Shown piece by piece: positions 4,354 to 63,398 of a stretch of 64,000 bases of DNA (within the stretch, counting starts at the first letter, position 1; each line of letters starts with the position of its first letter). The translations under genes and the position numbers were made by a program. The stretch lies in NCBI GenBank assembly GCA_035649735.1, contig DASRIZ010000347.1, forward strand, positions 1,321 to 65,320, given 5' to 3'. Source of the DNA: Blastocatellia bacterium. Its GTDB lineage: Bacteria > Acidobacteriota > Blastocatellia > UBA7656. The notes below the pieces were generated by a model. The model was not told the origin of the DNA. It did no database searches and worked only from the letters and a program-made list of their open reading frames with translations.

Positions 4354-4433
4354 TTGGAATATACCTCCGACCGCTTCATCGAAACTGGGTCATTATACCA
4401 ACTCAGAAACACGAGCACTATTACAGCGGCGTA

Positions 4434-4623
4434 GCGTAGACTGTCCAGTCTGCGCTCAGTCTTCAGCGCCGACGCAGCACGGAATGTAAGCGTAGACTGT
4501 CCAGTCTGCGCTCAGCCTTCAGCGCTAACGCAGCGCGGAATGTAAGCGTAGACTGTCCAGTCTGCGCTCAGTCTCCAGCGCCGACGCAGCACGCGTGTAG
4601 CGCAGACTGGACAGTCTACGCTA
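4434..4623. repeat. 56-bp tandem repeat x3 plus a terminal inverted copy of its 24-nt head; the core is the palindrome AGACTG-TC-CAGTCT
   Basis: Units start at 4434, 4490 and 4546 (gcgtagactgtccagtctgcgctcag + ~30 nt). Nt 4599-4622 (agcgcagactggacagtctacgct) is the exact reverse complement of 4545-4568. Confidence 0.9.
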
Positions 4624-7612: not shown

Positions 7613-10594
7613 ATGCGACTCAAGAATCGAGCTGTGTTGTTCGTTTTGGTGCTTGCGCTCTCCGGCGCGTCGAGCCTTCCATTCAAAGCATCCGCTCAGA
7701 CCCAACAAGCGGCAACAGCCCAACGCCCAATCGAACTGGCCGATAGTCTGGCCTGGAAGCGCGTCGCATCGCCGAGCATCTCCAACGACGGGCAATGGTT
7801 CGCGCACAAGCTGACGCCGAACGAAGGAGACAGCGAGCTCGTCTTGCGCCGCATTGGCGACGGCAAGGAGTGGCGTTTCCCGGTCGGCGAAGCCCAGGAC
7901 GGCGGCGGCGGCCCGGCCTTTTTCGGCGGCGCCCGAGCGGCGGAGATCGCATTCTCGGATGATTCAAAATGGTTCGCCTTCACAATCTCGCCGACCTTCA
8001 AGGATGGCAAACGGCTGAAAAAAGAGCGGAAGCCACTGCAGAACAAAGTTGCGGTCATCAATCTGTCGACCGAAAAAAAGGTTGAATTCGAAAAGGTTAA
8101 ACGATTCGCTTTCTCAGGTGAGAACGCGTCCTGGATTGCCCTTCACAAGTACGGGGCTGAATCGCAGGGGCCGCCACCCGGCGCGCCGCCTGCATCAGCC
8201 TCGGGCGCTTCGACACCCGCGCCGGACAGGGCTACCGGCTCCGATCTGATACTGCGCGAGCTCGCCAGCGGTAATGAACTGAACGTAGGAAATGTTGCCG
8301 ACTATTCGTTTAACAAAAAAGGCGATTGGCTGGCCTGGACGATCGACGCCAACGAAAAGAGCGGCAACGGCGTGCAGGCGCGCAATATGGATTCGGGCGC
8401 GGTGCTCCCGCTCGACAGCGGCAAGGCCATCTACAGGGGTTTGAATTGGACCGAAAAGGGCGACGGTTTGGCGGCGGTCAAAGGCGTCGAAGATCGGGGC
8501 TACGAAGACAAGCTCTACGGCGTCGTGGCATTCAATGGTTTTGGCAATGCCGGCGGCCCAACAAAAGTTATCTACGATCCTCAAAAGGGCGAAGACAAAT
8601 CGTTCCCGTCAGGCATGACTGTTAGCCCTAATCGACCGCCGACGTGGACGGACGATTTCAGCGCTGTGCTCTTCGGCATTCACGAAGTTAAAAAGAAGAA
8701 GCCCGGGGCGCAGAGAGAAGCCCCCAAAGACGACGAGGCCAAACCTGACGTTGCCCAGATGAAGAAGCCGGAAGACGAGCCGGAGAAGCCGGATCTGGTC
8801 TTGTGGCATTGGCAGGACAAACGTCTGCAATCGCAGCAGCAGGTCGAAGAGAGCCGCGACAAGAACTTCAGTTACCTGTCCATCTATCGCGTGGCCGACA
8901 AGAAATTCATTCGTCTGGCCGATGAAGACCTGCGAAACGTAACTGCCGCGCCGAAACAGAAATTTGCCATCGGCTCCGACAACCGCGATTACGAGCCTTT
9001 GGGCAATCTGGACGGGCGGCGTTATCAGGACATCTACGTCGTTGACTTGAAGACTGGCGCGCGCAAGCTGGCGGTCAAAAAGAATCGCTGGAGCTCCGGC
9101 GCCTCGCCCGACGGAACGCACTTTGTGTATTACGACGAGGGCCACTTCTTCACCTACGACATGGCCACGGGCAAATCCTACAACGTGACCGAGAAAGTTC
9201 CCTCGGTCTTCTGGGATCAGGAAGACGACCACAACGTCGTTAAGCCGCCGACAAATGTTGTCGGCTGGACAAAAGACGGCGTGTCGGTGCTGCTGTCGGA
9301 CAACTGGGACATCTGGAACGTCCCAGTTCATGGCGGCCAGGCGGTGAACCTGACCGTCAACGGCAAAAAGGATCGTATCCGTTATCAGAACCGCTTCCGC
9401 ATTGATCCTGATGAGAAGGGGATTGATCTCGGCTCGCCGGTCTATGTTCGGGTTTACGGCGAATGGACTAAGAAGATGGGCATCGCGCGCATTGACGGCG
9501 GCAAGCCGGGCGCGAAGATGCTGCAATGGGACGACGCCGGATTCGGCGGCGTGATGAAAGCCCGTAAGGCGGATGTCTGGCTCTACTCACGCGAGACCTA
9601 TCAGGACGCTCCGAGCTACTATGTGGCAGATGCCGCGCTCGCCAACGGGAAAAAGATTACGGATGCCAACCCGCAGCAGAAAGATTTCCTCTGGTCATCC
9701 GGTTCCAAACTGATCGAATACACCTCGGCCAAAGGCGATAAGCTGCAAGGCGCGCTCTTTCTTCCCGCAAACTATCAACCGGGCAGGAGCTATCCGACCA
9801 TTGTCTACATCTATGAAAAACTCTCTCAGGGCTTGAACAGTTACGCCATTCCGACGACCAACGGCTTTAACAAATCCGTGTATACCAGCAACGGCTATGC
9901 GGTGTTGATGCCGGACATCGTTTACAAGGTCAACGATCCGGGGATGTCTGCAGTCTGGTGCGTGCTGCCCGCGCTTGAAGCGGCAATCAAAACCGGCGTG
10001 GTGGACAAGGACCGCGTCGGCATTCAGGGTCATTCGTGGGGCGGGTATCAGACTTCGTTTCTGGTCACCCAGACCGATGCATTCAAGGCCGCGATTGCCG
10101 GCGCGCCGCTAACCGAGATGATCTCGATGTACTACTCGATCTACTGGAATTCCGGCGGCGGCAACATGGCCATTTTTGAAAGCAGCCAGGGTCGTTTTAC
10201 CGGCAGCCCGATAGACGTAACCGATGCCTATGTTCGGAACTCGCCGATCTCGCACGCGAAGAACGTCAAGACTCCGCTGGTCATCCTGCACAACGACAAG
10301 GACGGCGCGGTGGACTTCACGCAGGGGATCTTTTATTACAACACGCTGCGGCGCTTGCAGAAGCCCGTGGTGATGCTGCAATACAAAGGCGAAAACCATG
10401 GCTTGAGAGTGCCTGCAAATATGAAGGACTACACTGTGCGAATGCGTGAGTTTTTCGATCACCACCTGAAGGGTAAGCCGGCGCCAAAATGGTGGACAGA
10501 AGGCGTACCGCTCCTTAAGTTGAAAGAGCACCTGGAGGAGCGCGCGCCCGGGAAGCCGCCGACGATTGATCCGCTGAACAACGACAACAGGTAG
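7613..10594 (+). CDS. Secreted S9 family serine peptidase (prolyl oligopeptidase/DPP-like) with a long N-terminal propeller region
   Basis: 993 aa. AGGAGG RBS and a signal peptide. Nucleophile motif GHSWGGYQT, followed by HNDKDGAVD and ENHGL (Asp/His). Confidence 0.9.
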   Translation: MRLKNRAVLFVLVLALSGASSLPFKASAQTQQAATAQRPIELADSLAWKRVASPSISNDGQWFAHKLTPNEGDSELVLRRIGDGKEWRFPVGEAQDGGGGPAFFGGARAAEIAFSDDSKWFAFTISPTFKDGKRLKKERKPLQNKVAVINLSTEKKVEFEKVKRFAFSGENASWIALHKYGAESQGPPPGAPPASASGASTPAPDRATGSDLILRELASGNELNVGNVADYSFNKKGDWLAWTIDANEKSGNGVQARNMDSGAVLPLDSGKAIYRGLNWTEKGDGLAAVKGVEDRGYEDKLYGVVAFNGFGNAGGPTKVIYDPQKGEDKSFPSGMTVSPNRPPTWTDDFSAVLFGIHEVKKKKPGAQREAPKDDEAKPDVAQMKKPEDEPEKPDLVLWHWQDKRLQSQQQVEESRDKNFSYLSIYRVADKKFIRLADEDLRNVTAAPKQKFAIGSDNRDYEPLGNLDGRRYQDIYVVDLKTGARKLAVKKNRWSSGASPDGTHFVYYDEGHFFTYDMATGKSYNVTEKVPSVFWDQEDDHNVVKPPTNVVGWTKDGVSVLLSDNWDIWNVPVHGGQAVNLTVNGKKDRIRYQNRFRIDPDEKGIDLGSPVYVRVYGEWTKKMGIARIDGGKPGAKMLQWDDAGFGGVMKARKADVWLYSRETYQDAPSYYVADAALANGKKITDANPQQKDFLWSSGSKLIEYTSAKGDKLQGALFLPANYQPGRSYPTIVYIYEKLSQGLNSYAIPTTNGFNKSVYTSNGYAVLMPDIVYKVNDPGMSAVWCVLPALEAAIKTGVVDKDRVGIQGHSWGGYQTSFLVTQTDAFKAAIAGAPLTEMISMYYSIYWNSGGGNMAIFESSQGRFTGSPIDVTDAYVRNSPISHAKNVKTPLVILHNDKDGAVDFTQGIFYYNTLRRLQKPVVMLQYKGENHGLRVPANMKDYTVRMREFFDHHLKGKPAPKWWTEGVPLLKLKEHLEERAPGKPPTIDPLNNDNR

Positions 10595-10688
10595 GAAAAG
10601 AAGAAGGCAGAAGGCGGAAGGCAGAGGGCAGTTCGTGTAAGCTGCTTTCTGCCTTCTGCTTTCTGCCTTCTGGCTTCTGTCTTCCGCC
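10595..10688. repeat. Heptamer-array hairpin, (GAAGGCA)n / (TGCCTTC)n family
   Basis: aagaaggcagaaggcggaaggcagagggcag - ttcgtgtaagc - tgctttctgccttctgctttctgccttctggcttctgtcttccgcc. It starts 1 nt after the peptidase stop. Confidence 0.85.
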
Positions 10689-10746: not shown

Positions 10747-11202
10747 ATGAGTACACCAATGGAAGCAAAAGTCATAACTTGTCCAGCGTGCGGAGCAAAG
10801 AACCGAGTTCCGGCCGAGAAGCTTCGCGAGGGGCTCCAACCAGTCTGCGGACAGTGCCAGAGTACGCTTGCAGTTTCAACAATTCCCACAACAGTGACCG
10901 ATGCGAACTTCGCTGAAGAAGTGGAGCGTTCGCCGCTGCCGGTGTTGTTGGACATGTGGGCGCCCTGGTGCGGACCTTGTCGGATGATCGCTCCGGTAAT
11001 CGAACAGCTCGCAGGCGAGCTTGCCGGCCGGGTGAAAGTAGCCAAGCTAAACACCGACGAGAACCCGATGACTGCATCGCGATTCAACGTCCGCAGCATT
11101 CCGACGCTCCTGGTGATAAAGGGCGAGAAAGAGATCGATCGCCTGGTCGGAGCAATGCCTAAACAAGAGATCCTGCGCAGGATCGAGCCGCTGATCAAAT
11201 GA
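10747..11202 (+). CDS. trxC: Thioredoxin with an N-terminal zinc-finger extension (Trx2 type)
   Basis: 151 aa. CPACG...CGQC zinc finger, then WAPWCGPCR. Confidence 0.85.
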
Positions 11203-16334: not shown

Positions 16335-17033
16335 ATGACAGACGGAAACGCGATCAAGGTGTCCGCACTACTCTTCGGACAGGCTCGAGAATGGGTTGGT
16401 TCTTCAAACGTGGATCTCACCCTCGAAGCCCCGGCAACAGTTCAAGACGCTTTCGCAATACTAAAATCAATGCATCCGCGGCTCGCCGAAATGGAGCGTA
16501 GCCTGTTGTTTGCGGTAAACGAGGAATACGCCTCGCATTCGCATCCCCTATCGGATGGCGACCGTCTTGCAGTTCTTCCTCCGGTGAGCGGCGGAGAAAC
16601 AAACAACCGCGACATCTTTGAGATAACCCGCGAACCGATCGACATTGCAGACCTGCGAGCACGCCTGCTCGAGGGAGACTCAGGCGCGGTGGTCATATTT
16701 GATGGAGTCGCCCGCAACAATACTAAAGGCCGGCCGACGCAATATCTTGAATACGAGGGCTACGAGCCAATGTCACTCCGGACGATGGAACAGATCGGAC
16801 GCGAGATACACGAGCGCTGGGCGATCAATCGGGTCGGGATCATCCATCGCCTGGGCCGGATCGATACGACTGAATCAAGCGTTGTCATTGTTGTAACGTC
16901 GGCTCATCGCAAGATCGCATTCGAAGCCTGTCACTACGCCATCGATCGCCTAAAGAAGATCGTGCCGATTTGGAAGAAGGAGTTCTTCGAAGACGGCGCG
17001 GTGTGGGTAGAGAATGAAGAGGCGCGGAGATAG
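16335..17033 (+). CDS. Fused molybdopterin synthase MoaD-MoaE (MoaX-like)
   Basis: Residues 1-87 form a MoaD/ThiS beta-grasp ending PPVSGG (GG codons at 16590-16595). The rest is MoaE (LEYEGY, HRLGRI, SAHRKIAFEAC, PIWKKE). Confidence 0.85.
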   Translation: MTDGNAIKVSALLFGQAREWVGSSNVDLTLEAPATVQDAFAILKSMHPRLAEMERSLLFAVNEEYASHSHPLSDGDRLAVLPPVSGGETNNRDIFEITREPIDIADLRARLLEGDSGAVVIFDGVARNNTKGRPTQYLEYEGYEPMSLRTMEQIGREIHERWAINRVGIIHRLGRIDTTESSVVIVVTSAHRKIAFEACHYAIDRLKKIVPIWKKEFFEDGAVWVENEEARR

Positions 17034-30852: not shown

Positions 30853-31638
30853 ATGAAGCTGAGCATCCTCCTCACAATCATTCTTACAGTGACCACCCAG
30901 GCGCAAATCGGGGTGTCGAGTACCACGCAAGAGTCATCTCCGCCTGGTGCCACAACGCAGGACAGGTCGAAAGTTGATGAGATCGCGCGCATGCTGGAGC
31001 GCGTCAAGAGTCGCTCGACCGCTGAGCGTCGCGAGGCGATCGATCAACTCGCCGAGGCCGGTGACCTGCGCGCGGTGGAACCGGTTATCGCCGCGCTTAA
31101 GGACCAGGAGGGGGACGTTCGGGCTTCGGCGGCGAACGCGCTCGGCCAACTCGGAGACAAGCGGGCAGTCGAACCGCTGATCCTAATGCTCAACGACGAG
31201 GTGTCATTCGTGCGCGCGGCGGCGGCAAGGGTACTGGGGCAGCTTGGCGACGCAAAATCAGTCGACCCGCTGACTACATCGCTGAAAGACGGGAACTCGA
31301 CGGTTCGAGGGGCCGCGGCGATGGGTCTCGGATCTTTGAAGGAAGTGAGAGCGGTGCCGGCATTGATTTCGGCGTTGAGAGACGAAGCGCCAGACGTCCG
31401 GTCGGCAGTCGCCGCGGCACTGGGCGATCTGCGTGACAAACGAGCGATCGATCCGCTAATTCACTCGTTGAAGGACGAGTACCGGATGGTCAAGCTTGCG
31501 GCCGCGTTGGCTCTCGCGGACATCGGCGACAAGCGCGCGGTGGCGGCGCTTAGCGAGGCCCTGGCGAGTGAGAAAGATGAGGAAACACGGTCGCAAATGA
31601 AGGAAGCGCTCCAGAGGCTGATGGCCGTGCCTGAGTGA
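30853..31638 (+). CDS. Secreted HEAT-repeat (PBS-lyase type) protein
   Basis: 261 aa. Signal peptide, then ~7 repeats of ..VRxxAAxALGxLGDxRAVxPLIxxLxD.. Confidence 0.8.
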
Positions 31639-31765
<127 letters not shown>

Positions 31766-31772
31766 TGCAAGA

Positions 31773-31802
31773 TTGACACTCGCGGCGTTCGTTGTGTAAG
31801 CT
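31773..31802 (+). promoter_or_regulatory. Putative sigma-70-type promoter for rpsU (TTGACA-N18-TAAGCT)
   Basis: TTGACA at 31773-31778 and TAAGCT at 31797-31802. GGAGG at 31824-31828 is followed after 6 nt by the GTG start at 31835. Confidence 0.3.
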
Positions 31803-31834
31803 TTCCGCTCATCAATTGCATACGGAGGTCTTGA

Positions 31835-32044
31835 GTGGCACAGGTAAAGGTTCACGATAACGAAAGCATCGAAAGCGCAATCCGACGCTTCAAGCGACAA
31901 GTGGCCCGCGAAGGGATCATAACCGACACTAAGAAGCACGCCTTCTATCTAAAACCTGGTGAGCGCCGCCGCCTAAAATCTCAGGTTGCCAGGCGCCGGG
32001 CCAGAAAGAGCCTCCGCAAACGGAACACCTCTCACGAAGAATGA
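31835..32044 (+). CDS. rpsU: 30S ribosomal protein S21
   Basis: 69 aa with a GTG start. [41 protein letters not shown] is the S21 signature. Confidence 0.92.
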
Positions 32045-32059
32045 AATAGAGCCCAGATA

Positions 32060-32206
32060 CCAAAGGCAGAAGGCAGAAACCAGAAGGCAGAAGGCAGTCA
32101 CCAGTCCTTCTGCCTTCTGCCTTCTGCCTTCTGCCTTCTGCCTTCTGCCTTCTGCCTTCTGCCTTCTGCCGTCTGCCGCTGCCTTCTGCCCGCTGCCTTC
32201 TGCCAG
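32060..32206. repeat. Heptamer-array hairpin, (CAGAAGG)~5 / (CCTTCTG)~14, strongly asymmetric
   Basis: The left arm is 32066-32094. The right arm has 9 perfect consecutive CCTTCTG units from 32106 to 32168, then ~5 degenerate units up to 32202. Confidence 0.9.
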
Positions 32207-32217
32207 CTTCCTCTAAG

Positions 32218-33216
32218 CTATCGCAACGCGATTCGGGGGTCGCGAGCCCGCGGCACCTCGTACCACACGCTGTCGCATTGATCCAACTCTTCCTTATCAA
32301 GTTCCAAATCGACGCCTCCGAGCGCATCTCGGAGTTGCTCCGCACTTGTCGCTCCGACGATCGCCGAGGTCACCGCTCGCTGCCGTAGCACCCACGCAAT
32401 CGATACGTGTGTGAGCGACTTTCCGCGCGCTTCAAAAAAAGCTCGCAAGCGCTCGACAACCTCGAAGCTAGCTTCATTCCAATATCGGTCGAGATAGAGT
32501 TTTCCTGCTACTGCGAAGCGGGTGTTGTCTGCGGGGGGCGCGCCGCGACGATGTTTTCCTGTGAGGAAGCCTCCCGCAAGCGGGTTGTAGACAATCATTC
32601 CGACGCCCTGGTCTTCGCAAAGCGGGACCACCTCGTGTTCAATTTCGCGAAACAGAAGGTTGTACCGAGGCTGCGTGGAATCGAATCTCGCCAGGCCAAG
32701 CCGATCACTGGTCCATAAAGCGCGGGCGAGTTGCCATGCCTGAAAGTTGGAGCAGCCGATATATCTCGCCTTGCCGCTCTGAACGATTGTATCCAAAGCC
32801 TTGAGCGTTTCGTCGATGGGTGTTTCGGAATCAGGTGCGTGAACCTGATAAAGATCAATATAATCGGTTCCCAACCTACGCAGGCTCTCATCAATGGCTG
32901 CCAGCACGTGCTTCCGGGACAGACCGCTGTCGTTTGGCCGAGGTCCCATTTGCATTCGGCACTTGGTGGCAAGAATGAAGTCGTCTCTCTTGCCTCGCAG
33001 CCATCGACCAACAATCTCTTCGGTTCTACCCGCGGTTTCAAGAGAAACCGGTATCGGATAAACATCCGCTGTGTCGATGAAGTTAACGCCGGCATCGGCG
33101 GCGGCGTTCAGGATAGCAAAAGATGTTTGCTCGTCGCATTGATGACCAAATGTCATGGTTCCGAGGCATACCTCAGTCACCTTGAGACCGGTTCCACCCA
33201 ATCGTCTTATCTTCAC
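32218..33216 (-). CDS. Aldo/keto reductase family oxidoreductase
   Basis: Start set at the GTG at 33216 (GGAGG + 7 nt), giving [24 protein letters not shown], the usual AKR N-terminus. The ORF is open back to 33279. Confidence 0.88.
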
Positions 33217-40056: not shown

Positions 40057-40099
40057 CAGAATATAGGTCCAATAGGTCCAATAGGTCCTATATTGGTTG
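40057..40099. repeat. ATAGGTCC-triplet element (direct orientation), immediately after the clpB stop
   Basis: cagaatataggtccaataggtccaataggtcctatattggttg. Confidence 0.8.
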
Positions 40100-41710: not shown

Positions 41711-41753
41711 CAGAATATAGGTCCTATAGGTCATATAGGTCCTATATTCAGAC
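41711..41753. repeat. ATAGGTCC-triplet element (direct orientation), after the eRF1-like gene
   Basis: cagaatataggtcctataggtcatataggtcctatattcagac. It has the same first 14 nt and the same terminal ataggtcctatatt as the copy at 40057. Confidence 0.8.
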
Positions 41754-49438: not shown

Positions 49439-49486
49439 AATAGGTCCTTTAGAAATATAGGTCCGATCGGTCATATAGGTCCTATT
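49439..49486. repeat. ATAGGTCC-family element
   Basis: aataggtcctttagaaatataggtccgatcggtcatataggtcctatt. It ends 3 nt before the esterase stop. Confidence 0.75.
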
Positions 49487-55083: not shown

Positions 55084-55169
55084 GCGGATGTGGCGGAATG
55101 GCAGACGCGCAGCGCTCAGGACGCTGTGGGAGCAATCCTGTGGAGGTTCAAGTCCTCTCATCCGCACCA
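55084..55169 (+). tRNA. tRNA-Leu (anticodon CAG), type II with a long variable arm; CCA is encoded
   Basis: Acceptor GCGGATG/CATCCGC. Anticodon stem CAGCG/CGCTG with loop CTCAGGA. Variable arm TGGGAGCAATCCTGTG, T-arm GAGGTTCAAGTCCTC, and a terminal ACCA. Confidence 0.93.
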
Positions 55170-56797: not shown

Positions 56798-59278
56798 ATG
56801 AAGCGAGTCAGGTTGTTATCCGCCGGTAAGGCTGCCGCTCTTGCACTGTTTATCGCCATCGCGGTCGCGCTGGTGGTGTACCTCTTCTTTCGAACAAGGC
56901 ACGCCCAACCGGAACAGACCCGACCGAAGCTTCAAGGAAAAGTTGTCGCGGTCTTCACCAACACTCATTATTCCCACGAAGTCAGCGGCCAGGTGCGGTT
57001 CAACATCACGGCGGGAACCGACAGAACTTACGAGGATGGCACTCACGAGCTTGAGCAGGTCAAGCTTGAATCCTACGGCTCGGCCGGCGAACGGCACGAC
57101 GTCGTAACCTGCGATCGCGCGAAGGTGAGCGATCCCGCCGATCTCAGTAAACTCGATGCGGAATTCATCTCAAATGTCGTCGTGCAAACCTCGGACGGGC
57201 TAACTCTCAAAACCAGTTACTTGCACTATGATCAAACGAAAAACACCGTCGATACGAAGGAGCCTGTCGAGTTCGAAGGCCGCAATTATTCCGGGAAGGC
57301 CACAGGCATGGTCATCGAGGCCGCGACCGAGCGAGCGAGTCTGCTGAATGACGTCGACGTAACCATAAAACCTGAAAGCGAAGCTGACCGGGACAAGAGA
57401 GCTCGCGGCGCCACGGAAAGCGCCCAGCAGCGCGAAGAAACACCTGAGCAGAGAAATGCGCGGCGGGCTCGCAAACTAGCGCGCAAAGAAAAACGCAGAC
57501 GCGCCGCTGAACTGGCTCAGGTGGAACCAGAAGGCAGAAGGCAGAAGGCAGAAGGCAGAAGGCAACGGGCAGAGGTCAATGGTCAGAGGTCAGAAGTCAG
57601 AGGTCAGATGCAACCGGCGGTGAACAAGCCGACAAGAATAAGAAGCGAGTCTGCCCTACTCGAAAAAAAGGAGCATCGAGTGACCTTTGACGGCAACGCG
57701 GTCGTGACGCAGGGGGCTGATGAGTTCCGCGCGGCGCGAATGGTCAGCTTCGCGGACGCTTCCAATCATATCGAGCGCATCGAGGCGCGCGGCGGCGCCT
57801 ATCTGAAACAATCGGACAAAGCGGAGATCAAATCTCCCGATATGGATTTCTTCTTCGCCGAGTCACACCAACTCGCGCGGGCGGTAGCGATGGGAGGCGC
57901 CTCGACGCGTTCGCTGGGACCCGAACCGATCAGAGAAGCTAGAGCCGACACGATCGAAGCAACCTTTGTTCAAGGCCCGCAGGCAAATGTTGTCGACGCG
58001 ATCACCGCTCACGGAAGCGCCGCATTGAAGATTCACGCACCTCCTCCGGCTAGCAACTCCGATAACCCCACCGCGCGCGAGCTTGCCGCCGACACGGTGA
58101 CGATGCAGTTCTTTCCGGATGGAAAAAACATCAAGCACGCTGAAGCAGCCGGTAAAGCAGTTATGACTATTACGCCGGTTCGAGCCGAACAACGCGCCGA
58201 CAAAAAGACAATTCACGCTCCCAGAATGGACGCCCTGTTTTTTGAAGAAGCCAACCGAGTAAAGACGTTTAGCGCCACCGATGGCGTGAGGGTTGAAATC
58301 GAAGCGACGATTCCGGACGATCACCCGTCGCGAGTAACGACCAGCAAATCGGCGCGCGCGGAGTTTCTAAAGGACTCGCAGGATATTGACCGCCTGTCGC
58401 AGGAAGGCAACTTCAAGTACGTCGAGGGCGAGCAAAATGCTCTTGCAGAAAGCGCGGTTTACGACGGCCAGAAAGAGATTCTCAATCTAAGAGGCAAGCG
58501 TCCGATGGCATGGGATGCGAAATCGCGAACCCAAGCCGATGAGATCGATTACGACCGCCGCCATGATGAGAGCCATGCGAGAGGCGATGTTCGCACCACT
58601 TACTACAGCCGCGAAACAACCAACGATTCGACGCCGTTCAAAAACGCCAAATCGCCGGTGTTCATAACTGCCGAACGCGCCGATGCCCAGAACAAGGCCG
58701 GCATCGCGATCTATACGATCAATGCCCGCGGCTGGCAAGACGATAACTTTATCAAGGCTGACAGAATCGAGCTCTATCAGGATGACAAGCGCATGGTCGC
58801 AATCGGCAATGTGGAGAGCGCTCTCTATCAGGCAAAACAAGAGACATCGCCTGGAAAGCGGGAGGTCGTTCCGGGTTTTGCGACAGCCGACAGGATGAGC
58901 TACTCGGACACAGAGCGAAAGATCCGTTATGAAGGCGGCGTGAAGTCCCGGCAAGGCACCGACCGCCTCGAAGCATCATCCGTCGATGTGTTTCTGATGC
59001 AGGAAACAAACGAGGTCGATCACCTGAACGCCGACGGCAACGTCGTGCTTACGCAACCGGGACGCCGGGGCGTCGGTGACAAGCTTGCGTACACGTCCGA
59101 AGATGGCCGCGCAGTTTTGACTGGAAAATCTGCCCGTGTAGACGACGTCGAGAAAGGGGCGACCATGGGCTCTCAATTGACGTTCTATAGTCGCGATGAT
59201 AGGATTTCGGTCGAGAATCAGCAGGGTACGGGCCGTGTCCGATCGACTCATCGTTTGACAAAGAGCAGACAGAATTGA
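56798..59278 (+). CDS. Fused LptC-like / multi-module LptA(OstA)-like LPS-transport protein
   Basis: 826 aa. N-terminal TM anchor and an LptC-like beta-jellyroll (aa ~40-200). A K/R/E-rich linker encoded partly by a heptamer array. Then repeated OstA-type segments (VTFDGNAVVTQGADEF.A, VAIGNVES, LNADGNVVLTQPG..GVGDKLAY). It lies directly upstream of lptB. Confidence 0.7.
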   Translation: MKRVRLLSAGKAAALALFIAIAVALVVYLFFRTRHAQPEQTRPKLQGKVVAVFTNTHYSHEVSGQVRFNITAGTDRTYEDGTHELEQVKLESYGSAGERHDVVTCDRAKVSDPADLSKLDAEFISNVVVQTSDGLTLKTSYLHYDQTKNTVDTKEPVEFEGRNYSGKATGMVIEAATERASLLNDVDVTIKPESEADRDKRARGATESAQQREETPEQRNARRARKLARKEKRRRAAELAQVEPEGRRQKAEGRRQRAEVNGQRSEVRGQMQPAVNKPTRIRSESALLEKKEHRVTFDGNAVVTQGADEFRAARMVSFADASNHIERIEARGGAYLKQSDKAEIKSPDMDFFFAESHQLARAVAMGGASTRSLGPEPIREARADTIEATFVQGPQANVVDAITAHGSAALKIHAPPPASNSDNPTARELAADTVTMQFFPDGKNIKHAEAAGKAVMTITPVRAEQRADKKTIHAPRMDALFFEEANRVKTFSATDGVRVEIEATIPDDHPSRVTTSKSARAEFLKDSQDIDRLSQEGNFKYVEGEQNALAESAVYDGQKEILNLRGKRPMAWDAKSRTQADEIDYDRRHDESHARGDVRTTYYSRETTNDSTPFKNAKSPVFITAERADAQNKAGIAIYTINARGWQDDNFIKADRIELYQDDKRMVAIGNVESALYQAKQETSPGKREVVPGFATADRMSYSDTERKIRYEGGVKSRQGTDRLEASSVDVFLMQETNEVDHLNADGNVVLTQPGRRGVGDKLAYTSEDGRAVLTGKSARVDDVEKGATMGSQLTFYSRDDRISVENQQGTGRVRSTHRLTKSRQN
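57528..57611. repeat. 12-unit heptamer array (CAGAAGG x5, then CAACGGG/CAGAGGT-type units) in frame inside the lptC-lptA ORF
   Basis: 12 x 7 = 84 nt = 28 codons, encoding [27 protein letters not shown]. The unit is the same as in the intergenic GAAGGCA hairpins, but only one arm is present. Confidence 0.9.
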
Positions 59279-62384: not shown

Positions 62385-62487
62385 AAAGACGGAAGGCAGA
62401 AGGCAGAAGGCAGCCTTCACAATCCGACTGGCTTCTGCTTCCTGCCTTCTGCTCTCTGCCTTCTGCTTTCTGCCTTCTGCCTTCTGG
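62385..62487. repeat. Heptamer-array hairpin, (GAAGGCA)n / (TGCCTTC)n family, between hpf and rapZ
   Basis: aaagacggaaggcagaaggcagaaggcag - ccttcacaatccgactgg - cttctgcttcctgccttctgctctctgccttctgctttctgccttctgccttctgg. It starts at the base after the hpf stop. Confidence 0.9.
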
Positions 62488-62492
62488 TCTTT

Positions 62493-63371
62493 ATGCCTGT
62501 TCCGGTCATTATCATTACCGGTGTTTCGGGGTCGGGGATGTCCTCGGCGCTCAAGGACTTTGAAGACCTCGGCTATTTTGCGATTGACAACCTCCCGGCG
62601 CAACTGATCCCCACGTTCGTCAAGCTGTGCGATGATTCCAGTGAAATTGATCGGATCGCGTTTGTGGTCGATGTGCGTTCGCGCGAATTTCTAAGCTTGT
62701 TCCCGCGGATGCACGAGGAGCTGGAAGAGAGAGGCGTCGATGTCAGGGTGCTCTTTCTTGAGGCGGACGACGAAGTTCTGCTTCGCCGTTACAGCGAAAC
62801 AAGGCGGCCACACCCCTTGCCCGACCAAAACGTCCGTCAGGCTATCCGTCAGGAGCGGGAGCTGCTCTCCGAGATTCGTGATCTGGCTGACCACGTCATC
62901 GACACGTCAGAGCATACGGTACACTCGCTGCGCGACGTGATCAAAGATCACTTTGCCGAACAGGGCGATGCGCACGAGCTGAATGTGACGATATCGTCGT
63001 TCGGGTTTCGGCATGGAGCGCCGCGCGGTCTGGATATGATGTTCGATGTGAGGTTTCTTCCAAATCCGCACTTCGTGGCAGAACTCCGTCCGCTCACCGG
63101 CCGCGACTCGCCGGTAATCGAGTACTTGCAATCTGAAAGCGAGGTCGAGGATACTATCGCGCGATTTGCCGACTTGCTGGCATACCTGTTACCCAGGTTT
63201 CAGCGCGAAGGGAAAAGCTATCTGACGGTTGGGGTCGGGTGTACCGGCGGCCGCCACAGATCGGTCATGGTCGCCGAGTCGATAAACAAGCGTCTGAACG
63301 AACTCGGATACAAGTCGAGAGTGGTTCATCGGGACATCCTCAAGGATGAGGATCGATATAAATCAATATAG
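62493..63371 (+). CDS. rapZ: RNase adapter protein RapZ (P-loop NTPase)
   Basis: 292 aa. ITGVSGSGMSSA P-loop and C-terminal GCTGGRHRSV. Confidence 0.93.
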   Translation: MPVPVIIITGVSGSGMSSALKDFEDLGYFAIDNLPAQLIPTFVKLCDDSSEIDRIAFVVDVRSREFLSLFPRMHEELEERGVDVRVLFLEADDEVLLRRYSETRRPHPLPDQNVRQAIRQERELLSEIRDLADHVIDTSEHTVHSLRDVIKDHFAEQGDAHELNVTISSFGFRHGAPRGLDMMFDVRFLPNPHFVAELRPLTGRDSPVIEYLQSESEVEDTIARFADLLAYLLPRFQREGKSYLTVGVGCTGGRHRSVMVAESINKRLNELGYKSRVVHRDILKDEDRYKSI

Positions 63372-63398
63372 GGCCTATAGGTCCTATCGGTCCTAGAT
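63367..63398. repeat. ATAGGTCC-family element between rapZ and the EIIA gene
   Basis: atatagggcctataggtcctatcggtcctaga. It overlaps the rapZ stop codon. Confidence 0.7.

What the first reader, a model, noticed from the sequence alone, without database searches (positions are those of the whole stretch)
10595..10688. The GAAGGCA/TGCCTTC hairpin family has six loci, constant polarity and very unequal arm lengths
SEEN: The loci are 10595-10688, 17034-17095 paired with 17226-17262, 31639-31765, 32060-32206, 62385-62487, and a one-armed copy in a coding region at 57528-57611. In all five hairpin loci the purine-rich arm comes first on the given strand and the CCTTCTG arm second; the opposite order never occurs. 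Arm lengths differ widely within a locus: ~10 units against ~5 at 31639, and ~5 against ~14 at 32060, where 9 CCTTCTG units are perfect and consecutive. Units drift within an array (GGCAGAA, GGCAGTA, GGCGGAA).

INFERENCE: Unequal arms and perfect runs point to recent, ongoing expansion and contraction, so the loci are probably hypervariable. The constant polarity suggests selection on the folded RNA or on strand-specific recognition.
Basis: partly seen in the sequence, partly recalled or inferred. Interest (0 to 1): 0.6.

Follow-up and report, generated by a model that had tools for sequence, protein, structure and literature searches.

The report
Variable heptamer-repeat hairpins between genes
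The gaps between genes in this soil bacterium hold long DNA/RNA hairpins whose two arms are runs of a 7-base repeat; the arms gain and lose repeats between closely related strains and always sit in the same order (G-rich arm first), a rule that holds for every such repeat family in the genome, not only for this one.

Summary
Five GAAGGCA/TGCCTTC fold-backs and one single-armed coding copy lie at the stated places (59 two-unit matches against 0.6 expected).

They belong to a genome-wide class: 763 heptamer arrays and 203 inverted pairs in 35 unit families. The GAAGGCA type has 126 arrays and 43 hairpins.

Arm order is fixed in 203 of 203 pairs. It is unchanged by reverse complementation, so it cannot reflect strand-specific recognition. 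The general rule is "G-rich arm 5', C-rich arm 3'", not "purine arm first". It holds in co-directional, convergent and divergent spacers alike, in relatives, in other phyla, and (from the literature) in Xanthomonas.

The hypervariability inference is supported. At all four testable loci, assemblies with 97.6-100 % identical flanking genes differ by whole units in either arm. Arm lengths are almost uncorrelated.

Orthologous spacers across the genus always hold a heptamer hairpin, but unit sequence and count turn over.

I found no sign of selection on the sense RNA and no U-tract terminators.

Best reading: slippage-prone inverted microsatellite hairpins of the STRR/Xanthomonas kind, REP-like in position, whose polarity is set by how they arise or are copied. 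Function is unproven.

The parts
10595..10688 (.). GAAGGCA hairpin 1. The 5' arm has about 4-5 units (10602-10631), the loop is about 10 nt, and the 3' arm has about 7 units (10642-10688). It starts directly after the TAG stop (10592-10594) of an S9 peptidase gene and lies upstream of trxC (10747-11202).
   Evidence: fold -66.6 kcal/mol on +, -47.4 on -
17032..17262 (.). GAAGGCA hairpin 2, a composite. The outer arms are 17032-17084 (about 7 units) and 17228-17262 (5 units). They enclose a 145-nt insert that is itself built of ATTTGAC/ATTTGTC and AATGGAC heptamer arrays. It fills the convergent spacer between moaD-moaE (+) and a TPR gene (-), and both stop codons lie at the array edges.
   Evidence: five composite copies in the genome share the tier order; a strain allele of 81 nt lacks the insert
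31638..31764 (.). GAAGGCA/GTAGGCA hairpin 3. The 5' arm has about 10 units (31638-31708), the loop is 17-19 nt, and the 3' arm has about 5 units (31726-31764). It starts at the TGA stop of a HEAT-repeat gene and lies upstream of the rpsU promoter region.
31835..32044 (+). rpsU (ribosomal protein S21), the gene enclosed between hairpins 3 and 4. This segment is inverted relative to most genomes of the genus.
32054..32204 (.). GAAGGCA hairpin 4. The 5' arm has about 5-7 units (32054-32104), the loop is 8 nt, and the 3' arm has about 14 units (32106-32204), including 9 perfect CCTTCTG units at 32106-32168. It lies in the convergent spacer between rpsU (+) and an aldo/keto reductase gene (-, stop at 32218-32220).
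   Evidence: RNA contigs run from rpsU into it
62385..62492 (.). GAAGGCA hairpin 5. The 5' arm has 3 units (62392-62413), the loop is about 19 nt, and the 3' arm has about 8 units (62428-62486). It fills the whole hpf-rapZ spacer, from the TGA stop to 6 nt before the ATG.
57528..57608 (+). Single-armed copy inside a coding region: (CAGAAGG)x5 perfect, then (CAGAGGT)x5.6. It is read in frame in the linker of an LptC-LptA fusion gene (56798-59278), with no complementary arm nearby.

Best explanation
The six loci are local members of the second-largest family of a genome-wide and genus-wide class of intergenic fold-backs. Each fold-back is made of two opposed tandem arrays of a 7-nt unit. The GAAGGCA family has 126 arrays and 43 hairpins.

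Shown: each arm behaves as its own microsatellite and gains or loses whole units between near-identical strains. Arm lengths are almost uncorrelated, and variant units are barely mirrored between the arms.

Shown: the hairpin persists at orthologous spacers across the genus while its unit sequence, its copy number and even its unit family turn over.

Shown: the order 'G-rich arm 5', C-rich arm 3'' holds for every family and every spacer type.

Inferred: length change comes from replication slippage. The two arms are kept alike at the level of unit type by exchange between arms, which also flips loops and probably inverted the rpsU cassette.

Inferred: the fixed order is independent of strand and of gene context, so it is imposed by how such hairpins are born or copied, not by locus-by-locus selection.

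Inferred, least certain: once transcribed, the 20-70 bp stem right after a stop codon acts like a REP element or an rRNA intervening-sequence stem. It would be a double-stranded RNA block or RNase III site that sets mRNA 3' ends or separates cistrons.
For: Class and polarity:
- 763 arrays, 203 inverted pairs and 35 families, with 203 of 203 pairs in one order per family.
- Within 100 nt the order is 186 to 1.
- 5' arms are 32 % G and 16 % C; 3' arms are the mirror image; A equals T.
- G>C in 24 families against 4.
- The rule holds in 110 co-directional, 27 convergent and 22 divergent spacers.
- Unpaired arrays obey the same positional rule, 180 against 64.
- Relatives and other phyla give 11 R-first and 0 Y-first pairs.
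- In Xanthomonas, paired arrays are 'always' convergent (PMC4692102).

Dynamics:
- Unit-count alleles at 4 of 4 loci, with flanking genes 97.6-100 % identical; the commonest allele was recovered in 6-7 independent assemblies.
- Arm lengths correlate at rho 0.23, and 55 % of pairs differ by 2 or more units, with no bias towards either arm.
- Mirror test: mean z 0.23.

Persistence with turnover:
- The hpf|rapZ spacer holds a heptamer hairpin in 14 genomes, with units GAAGGCA, GAGGTCA, GTGGTCA or AAAAGTA and lengths of 71-245 nt.
- The moaE|TPR spacer shows the same pattern.

Exchange between arms:
- The G011 loop is the exact reverse complement of the loop in G005, G012 and G006, while the flanks stay collinear.
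- rpsU is inverted between arrays.

Position and RNA:
- Median distance is 8 nt from stop codon to array and 32 nt from array to start codon.
- RNA contigs run from rpsU into both arms.
- The Coxiella intervening-sequence stem contains strain-variable tandem heptamers cut by RNase III (PMC4990558).
- RNase III is present in all 30 relatives.
Against: - No function was shown.
- Hairpins occur in the three spacer classes in proportion to the number of spacers (p = 0.46), including 22 divergent spacers where no mRNA 3' end exists.
- Arm mismatches show no preference for G.U pairs on the sense strand.
- Half of the hairpins carry long unpaired arm excess.
- Slippage and arm-to-arm exchange are inferred from comparing sequences, not observed.
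- The loop flip rests on one genome.
- The G-rich-first bias across families is not phylogenetically independent, because families are related by mutation.
- Abundance of the unit varies from about 0 to 677 hits among congeners, and five composite copies share their tier order. Both hint at copying between loci, which pure in-place slippage does not explain.
- Short-read assemblies break at arrays, so some unit counts may be wrong.
Confidence: 0.55

Rival explanations
1. The hairpins are small non-autonomous mobile elements (MITE-, REPIN- or intervening-sequence-like, possibly 'empty' forms of cassettes that carry a PF05635 gene in the loop). They are copied to new spacers or into existing hairpin loops by an enzyme, and polarity is simply inherited from the founder of each family.
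For: - GAAGGCA hits range from about 0 to 371 in same-genus genomes and reach 677 in this one, which looks like a burst.
- Orthologous spacers carry different families in different species, while a few families fill many spacers within one genome.
- There is nested hairpin-in-hairpin architecture. Five composite copies share the tier order, two of them share a non-repeat core, and a strain allele lacks the inner element.
- 3 of 8 PF05635 genes are enclosed by opposed arrays, always with the 5'-type array first.
Against: - Loops of the simple GAAGGCA hairpins are unrelated, so there is no conserved core.
- No target-site duplications are visible.
- The four Y1 (RAYT-type) transposase genes have no arrays within 800 nt.
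- No PF05635 gene in this genome is flanked by GAAGGCA arrays.
- Loops are locus-specific and conserved between strains and some species, which fits evolution in place.
Confidence: 0.2
2. The hairpins are selected RNA structures, namely bidirectional transcription terminators or attenuators. The arm order is kept by selection on the folded transcript, for example so that a C-rich, Rho-loading arm never emerges unpaired, or so that the arm in front of a start codon carries no start codons or Shine-Dalgarno-like motifs.
For: - Arrays start a median of 8 nt after stop codons.
- The GAAGGCA family is enriched in convergent spacers, 10 of 29 against 13.7 % (p = 0.004).
- Divergent spacers are depleted per nucleotide (22 observed, 38.5 expected).
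- The structure is conserved with unit turnover across the genus.
- The 3' arm has three times fewer start codons and no SD-like 4-mers.
- Rho is present.
- At locus 1 all arm differences give G.U pairs on the sense strand (-66.6 against -47.4 kcal/mol).
Against: - No U-tract follows the stems, and the terminator scan found none.
- There is no genome-wide sense-strand G.U bias (62 against 78) and no difference in fold energy.
- Polarity is just as strict where the proposed selection cannot act: 27 of 27 convergent and 22 of 22 divergent spacers.
- The C-rich arm is the longer, partly unpaired arm as often as not (40 against 41 in co-directional spacers), which is the opposite of Rho avoidance.
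- Many hairpins sit inside operons such as hpf-rapZ.
Confidence: 0.15
3. The unequal arms and the variation are artefacts of short-read assembly across repeats.
For: - 64 of 1328 contig ends carry arrays, and 26 of 126 GAAGGCA arrays are at contig ends.
- Logan contigs break at the arrays.
- One contig end (C134) is a fold-back chimera of another hairpin.
Against: - The same alleles recur in 6-7 independent assemblies from different samples.
- Variants differ by exact multiples of 7 and go with flank SNPs.
- The arrays compared are imperfect and shorter than the k = 141 used in those assemblies.
Confidence: 0.03

Closest known systems
Heptameric GGGAATC repeats of Xanthomonas and GGGGAYT repeats of Nostoc (Rehm et al. 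2015, PMC4692102); the cyanobacterial STRR heptamers are named from my own knowledge (Mazel et al. 1990)
   Same: - 7-nt tandem units that are mostly intergenic and lie within 50 nt of stop codons.
- 70-75 paired sites per Xanthomonas genome, always convergent, which means the G-rich arm comes first.
- Repeat lengths differ between related genomes, while the type (single or paired) is preserved.
- One family here (TTGGTCA) has the same unit as STRR2; this match is from memory.
   Different: - One dominant unit per genome there, against at least 35 unit families here.
- Those units were interpreted as G-quadruplex formers needing GGG tracts. GAAGGCA has no GGG, so quadruplexes cannot explain it.
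- Here pairs are the rule (203), arms reach 19 units, hairpins are nested, and unit families are replaced at orthologous sites.
- Not described in Acidobacteriota.
REP/BIME elements and REPINs of Proteobacteria (PMC3116915, seen in the search but not read; the rest is from my own knowledge)
   Same: Abundant extragenic palindromes close to gene 3' ends and inside operons, variable between strains, with proposed roles in mRNA stabilisation and termination.
   Different: REPs are single imperfect palindromes of about 20-40 nt, with a conserved head, mobilised by a RAYT transposase that REPs flank. Here the arms are tandem heptamers, the families are many, and no Y1 transposase lies near any array.
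23S rRNA intervening sequences that carry an S23p/PF05635 ORF (Coxiella burnetii, PMC4990558)
   Same: - A long stem formed by terminal inverted repeats.
- The 5' part holds tandem heptamers (GACAGAT, then GACAGAA, one mismatch from GGCAGAA) whose number varies between strains.
- RNase III cuts in the stem.
- In this genome 3 of 8 PF05635 genes lie between opposed heptamer arrays.
   Different: The loci of this finding are in mRNA spacers, not rRNA. They hold no ORF in the loop (apart from the rpsU arrangement), and no PF05635 gene here is flanked by GAAGGCA units.
TAACTGA heptamer direct repeats of Beggiatoaceae and cyanobacteria (MacGregor 2015, PMC4679880)
   Same: Intergenic heptamer arrays shared across phyla, with indels in 7-nt steps between close strains.
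   Different: Those are direct repeats, mostly just upstream of start codons, with only one inverted case, and no hairpin is predicted.

Membership tests
Heptameric SSR / STRR-type repeats with inverted pairs (Rehm 2015) | Tandem repeats with a 7-nt unit | tested here: met
   Period-7 arrays at all loci; 763 genome-wide
Heptameric SSR / STRR-type repeats with inverted pairs (Rehm 2015) | Mostly intergenic and close to the stop codon of the 5' neighbouring ORF | tested here: met
   Median 8 nt from stop codon to array; for unpaired arrays the nearest gene is on the 5' side of the G-rich strand, 180 against 64
Heptameric SSR / STRR-type repeats with inverted pairs (Rehm 2015) | Paired arrays always convergent (G-rich strand first) | tested here: met
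   203 of 203 pairs; 186 against 1 within 100 nt
Heptameric SSR / STRR-type repeats with inverted pairs (Rehm 2015) | Unit with a G-tract of 3 or more, able to form G-quadruplexes, with a preference for 4 units | tested here: not met
   GAAGGCA has at most GG; the median is 7.2 units per array
Heptameric SSR / STRR-type repeats with inverted pairs (Rehm 2015) | Copy number differs between related genomes | tested here: met
REP/BIME/REPIN | Short conserved imperfect palindrome (about 20-40 nt) with an invariant head sequence | tested here: not met
   Arms are tandem heptamers of variable number; loops are unrelated
REP/BIME/REPIN | A RAYT (Y1 transposase) gene flanked by the repeats | tested here: not met
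   4 PF01797 genes, none with arrays within 800 nt
Intrinsic (Rho-independent) terminator | G+C-rich stem with a loop of 3-8 nt, followed by a U-tract | tested here: not met
   No T-run after any of the five 3' arms; the scan of 31400-32400 flags neither hairpin
MITE | Terminal inverted repeats around a conserved core, with target-site duplication and a related autonomous element | tested here: inconclusive
   No shared core in simple hairpins and no direct duplications seen at the flanks. However, five composite copies share their tier order, and one strain allele lacks the inner element
23S rRNA intervening sequence (S23p/PF05635 type) | Stem-loop inserted in 23S rRNA that encloses a PF05635 ORF | tested here: not met
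   The loci lie in mRNA spacers with no ORF in the loop. PF05635 genes elsewhere in the genome are enclosed by other heptamer families
23S rRNA intervening sequence (S23p/PF05635 type) | Excision by RNase III within the stem | not testable with these tools
   Needs RNA end mapping. RNase III is present in 30 of 30 relatives but missing from this draft
Known RNA families (Rfam 15) | Match at gathering score | tested here: not met
   The only hit in the window is a tRNA at 55084-55166

The most novel reading that the evidence does not exclude
A general 'polarity law' for repeat-armed hairpins: in bacteria, every fold-back built of tandem heptamers has its G-rich array 5' and its C-rich array 3' on both strands, whatever the unit and whatever the neighbouring genes. 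The cause would be that the C-rich arm is made as a fold-back (template-switch) copy downstream of a pre-existing G-rich array. Orphan G-rich arrays, such as those left by the rpsU inversion, would then regenerate a partner. Under this reading the hairpins are self-renewing palindromes, and this lineage becomes a natural system for watching palindrome birth, arm exchange and loop flipping.
Probability: 0.2. Interest if true: 0.7.

Novelty: new variant of a known kind. Interest (0 to 1): 0.5.

Why it matters
- Heptamer repeats have been known for decades in cyanobacteria and Xanthomonas, but neither their origin nor their function is understood.
- This lineage offers dozens of unit families in one genome.
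- The arm-order rule holds without exception and does not depend on G-quadruplex potential or gene context.
- Unit gain and loss is directly visible between strains.
- The hairpin stays at a spacer while its sequence is replaced.
- Together these facts narrow the possible explanations to an intrinsic birth or copying mechanism.
- The loci could also serve as strain markers (VNTRs) for an abundant but hardly cultured soil group.
- The arrays are substrates for inversions, as at rpsU, and a source of assembly breaks and chimeras in soil metagenomes.

Tried and rejected
1. Selection on the sense RNA. Locus 1 looked like it (-66.6 against -47.4 kcal/mol), but the genome-wide count of G.U-type against A.C-type arm mismatches (62 against 78) and the fold energies show no bias.
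2. 'Purine arm first' as the rule. Rejected at 18 families against 17; the rule is a G/C skew.
3. Read-level variation. I used independent assemblies instead.
4. RAYT/REP link. No arrays lie near the Y1 transposase genes.
5. Known RNA family or canonical terminator. None found.
6. True palindrome. Variant units are barely mirrored between the arms (z 0.23), so the arms are largely independent arrays.
7. Rho avoidance as the cause of polarity. The C-rich arm is the longer, unpaired one as often as the G-rich arm, and polarity is equally strict in convergent spacers.
8. A second 'loop flip' (C134 against C287). It is a chimeric contig end.
9. RNase III absence as an explanation for tolerating long stems. 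The gene is missing only from this draft and is present in all 30 relatives.
10. Cross-phylum recurrence of GAAGGCA as evidence that the unit is special. There is no control, the other units are mostly not shared, and most arrays there are single.
11. The trxC-upstream spacer in relatives. It is not syntenic, so no comparison was possible, and only one other assembly holds the protein.

Full report
**1. The observation**

- Tandem Repeats Finder reports period-7 arrays at 10602-10631 / 10642-10688, 17032-17084 / 17228-17262, 31638-31708 / 31726-31764, 32054-32104 / 32106-32204 and 62392-62413 / 62428-62486. It also reports the coding arrays at 57528-57608.
- A two-unit probe with up to 2 mismatches matches 59 times, against 0.63 expected from shuffles.
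- The perfect run of nine CCTTCTG units is at 32106-32168.
- All five hairpins fold far better than shuffles (-47 to -86 kcal/mol, z -5 to -9).

Gene context:

| Hairpin | Left neighbour | Right neighbour |
|---|---|---|
| 1 | S9 peptidase stop | trxC |
| 2 | moaD-moaE stop | TPR gene stop (convergent) |
| 3 | HEAT-repeat gene stop | rpsU promoter |
| 4 | rpsU stop | aldo/keto reductase stop (convergent) |
| 5 | hpf stop | rapZ start (fills the spacer, ends 6 nt before the ATG) |

The single-armed copy lies in the linker of an LptC-LptA fusion gene.

**2. A point of logic about 'polarity'**

A fold-back that reads [R-arm]-loop-[Y-arm] on one strand reads exactly the same on the other strand. 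The order is therefore a property of the element itself. It says nothing about the strand or about the direction of neighbouring genes. It is still a real property, because [Y-arm]-loop-[R-arm] is a different object.

**3. Genome-wide census**

The window is C347:1321-65320 of an 8.4-Mb draft of 664 contigs with 55.5 % G+C.

- My detector finds 763 period-7 arrays. Of these, 203 pairs are an array followed within 500 nt by its reverse complement. The pairs fall into 35 unit families.
- Every pair has the order typical of its family: AGTCCGT 41 of 41, GAAGGCA type 43 of 43, CTGGTTT 20 of 20, and so on.
- Without any pairing rule, the nearest complementary neighbour within 100 nt is in the standard order 186 times and in reversed order once. 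The reversed cases further out are neighbouring hairpins, such as the two around rpsU.
- The first arm is not generally purine-rich (18 families against 17). It is G-rich: G>C in 24 families against 4, and G+T>A+C in 29 against 6.
- The real 5' arms are 32 % G and 16 % C, the 3' arms are the mirror image, and A equals T in both.
- The rule holds in co-directional (110), convergent (27) and divergent (22) spacers alike.
- Unpaired intergenic arrays obey the matching positional rule. The nearest gene lies on the 5' side of the G-rich strand in 180 cases against 64.
- The families are related by mutation, so the family counts are not independent.

**4. Beyond this genome**

- The 21-mer with up to 2 mismatches gives about 0 to 371 hits in genomes of the same genus and 677 here. 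It also occurs in a second family of the class. The control pattern gives about 0. All listed nearby pairs are plus then minus.
- The exact (GAAGGCA)4 occurs in at least 120 contigs from many phyla.
- In the 80 loci I fetched, most of those arrays are single. The 11 pairs (Thermoanaerobaculia, Pyrinomonadaceae, Planctomycetota) are all R-first.
- Rehm et al. report 70-75 paired GGGAATC sites per Xanthomonas genome, 'always' convergent, close to stop codons, with lengths that differ between species.
- The polarity and the length variation are therefore already implicit in the literature for one unit. They were interpreted there through G-quadruplexes, which GAAGGCA cannot form.

**5. Are the arms dynamic?**

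Contigs from other assemblies that encode exactly the same flanking protein give a strain-level comparison.

| Locus | Flank identity | Alleles seen |
|---|---|---|
| hpf\|rapZ spacer | hpf 97.6-100 % | 108 nt (window plus 5 assemblies), 101, 116, 94 nt; same loop; differences are whole units in either arm |
| Hairpin upstream of rpsU | rpsU 99-100 % | 5' arm 10, 10, 8, 8 and >=13 units; 3' arm 5, 5, 6 and 9 units |
| Hairpin downstream of rpsU | rpsU 99-100 % | 5' arm 5 or 3 units; 3' arm 14, 14, ~21, 7 and 10 units |
| moaE\|TPR spacer | moaE >=99.3 % | 227 nt (7 cases), 220, 213 and 81 nt; one variant has a GGCAGTA arm; the 81-nt allele lacks the nested inner element |

- The common allele recurs in independent assemblies, and the arrays compared are shorter than the k-mer those assemblies used. 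The variation is therefore not assembly noise.
- Assemblies do break in arrays: 26 of 126 GAAGGCA arrays are at contig ends, Logan contigs stop at the arrays, and one contig end is a fold-back chimera.
- Genome-wide, arm lengths correlate weakly (rho 0.23). 55 % of pairs differ by 2 or more units and 29 % by 4 or more. Neither arm is the longer one more often (77 against 76).
- Variant units are hardly mirrored between the arms (mean z 0.23).
- Each arm thus behaves as its own microsatellite, and unequal arms are the norm.

**6. Persistence with turnover**

- In 14 genomes of the genus, the hpf|rapZ spacer always holds a heptamer hairpin that runs from the stop codon to a few nt before the ATG.
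- Its units are GAAGGCA (eight genomes plus a decayed one), GAGGTCA/GAAGTCA (two), GTGGTCA (two) or AAAAGTA (one). Its length is 71-245 nt.
- The moaE|TPR spacer shows the same pattern with five families. G005 carries alone the family that is nested inside the GAAGGCA arms here.
- Both arms always change together.
- In G011 the loop is the exact reverse complement of the loop of G005, G012 and G006, while the outer flanks are collinear. That is the footprint of recombination between the arms.
- The same process on a larger scale can explain rpsU. Eleven genomes have rpsU convergent with the HEAT gene. G000, G011 and G003 have it inverted, with arrays on both sides. After the inversion, the G-rich arrays again have a C-rich partner downstream.

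**7. What the hairpins do**

- They start a median of 8 nt after stop codons and end a median of 32 nt before start codons.
- Per spacer they follow the background (p = 0.46). Per intergenic nucleotide, divergent spacers are depleted (22 against 38.5 expected, p = 0.005).
- The GAAGGCA family is enriched in convergent spacers (10 of 29, p = 0.004).
- There are no U-tracts and no Rfam match.
- Two metatranscriptome contigs run from rpsU into the downstream hairpin, one of them across the loop. Array unitigs are deep in RNA runs. This evidence is weak, and DNA carry-over is not excluded.
- Arm mismatches show no preference for G.U pairs on the sense strand (62 against 78), and sense and antisense fold energies are equal.
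- The stems of 20-70 bp are long enough to be RNase III substrates (my own knowledge). In Coxiella, an intervening-sequence stem that holds strain-variable heptamers (GACAGAT, and GACAGAA one mismatch from GGCAGAA) is cut by RNase III.
- Three of eight PF05635 genes here lie between opposed heptamer arrays, with the 5'-type array first whatever the gene's direction.
- RNase III is in all 30 relatives and is missing only from this draft. Rho is present.
- A REP-like or intervening-sequence-like role as a double-stranded RNA block or cleavage site is thus plausible, but nothing here demonstrates it.

**8. Why the order is fixed**

- Selection tied to local context predicts exceptions where that context is absent. 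This applies to avoiding an exposed C-rich, Rho-loading arm in operons, and to keeping start codons and SD-like motifs out of the arm that precedes a start codon.
- There are no exceptions in 27 convergent and 22 divergent spacers.
- The C-rich arm is the longer, partly unpaired one as often as not.
- I therefore favour an intrinsic cause. Either the order is inherited when hairpins are copied, or a birth mechanism places the complementary arm 3' of a G-rich array.
- The data cannot tell these two apart. Burst-like abundance differences, nested composites and the presence/absence allele keep a mobile-element reading alive. The unrelated loops of the simple hairpins and the lack of any transposase link speak against it.

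**9. Verdict**

- The hypervariability inference is supported.
It is replaced by a class-wide, strand-symmetric rule that the G-rich arm comes first.
- The elements are a new, richer variant of the heptamer repeats known from Xanthomonas and cyanobacteria.
- The organism is a soil or rhizosphere bacterium.

Noticed in passing
window 31638-32204; loci L001-L015: The ~300-nt rpsU cassette (promoter plus gene) is inverted in G000, G011 and G003 relative to 11 other genomes of the genus, and repeat arrays bound it in all three. In G011 and G003 those arrays belong to the AGTCCGT family, not GAAGGCA, so the unit family was replaced at the same site.
   Followed up: partly
genome.fa C204:45439-46108, C343:10758-11416, C77:8690-9218: PF05635 ('23S rRNA intervening sequence protein') genes are enclosed by opposed heptamer arrays, with the 5'-type array first whatever the gene's direction. 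This is the case for 3 of 8 genes, and 2 more have an array on one side.
   Followed up: partly
whole genome G000 against G001-G030: No RNase III gene (PF14622, TIGR02191) is found in this 98 %-complete draft, while all 30 relatives have exactly one. This is probably an assembly gap.
   Followed up: partly
window 17085-17227; genome.fa C654:8012-8278, C152:5298-5583, C562:13947-14204, C634:7589-7956: Five composite hairpins share the same tier order (outer GAAGGCA arms, inner ATTTTCC/ATTTGTC arrays). Two of them share a non-repeat core. One strain allele (L210) of the window copy lacks the whole inner part.
   Followed up: partly
genome.fa C134:1-150 against C287:20816-21010: Contig C134 begins with the reverse complement of part of C287's hairpin, including 5 nt of its flank. 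This is a fold-back chimera at a contig end, and arrays lie near 64 of 1328 contig ends.
   Followed up: yes
L081-L160 (e.g. L092, a Zymobacter chromosome with at least 15 tandem matches; L152, Anabaena azotica): The exact (GAAGGCA)4 occurs in at least 120 contigs from Cyanobacteria, Verrucomicrobiota, Chloroflexota, Planctomycetota, Bacteroidota, Nitrospirota, Proteobacteria and other groups, mostly as single arrays. I ran no control for chance recurrence.
   Followed up: partly
window 62438-62488 in runs X1-X4: Word depth in soil and rhizosphere metagenomes rises from about 10 in the flanks to about 10,000 inside the CTGCCTT array, so this heptamer is extremely abundant in those communities.
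   Followed up: no
window 27432-27463, 40063-40092, 41716-41746, 49455-49485, 63367-63395: A different repeat type: short tandem arrays of a 9-nt unit (TATAGGTCC / ATAGGTCCA) at five places in the window.
   Followed up: no
window 4433-4622: A tandem repeat of a 56-nt unit, 3.4 copies, 87 % matches.
   Followed up: no
L053 (G012), upstream of trxC: A fold-back built of a 14-nt unit (GCCCTGGGAGCGCA x3, facing TGCGCTCCCAGGG), so hairpins in this genus are not limited to 7-nt units.
   Followed up: no
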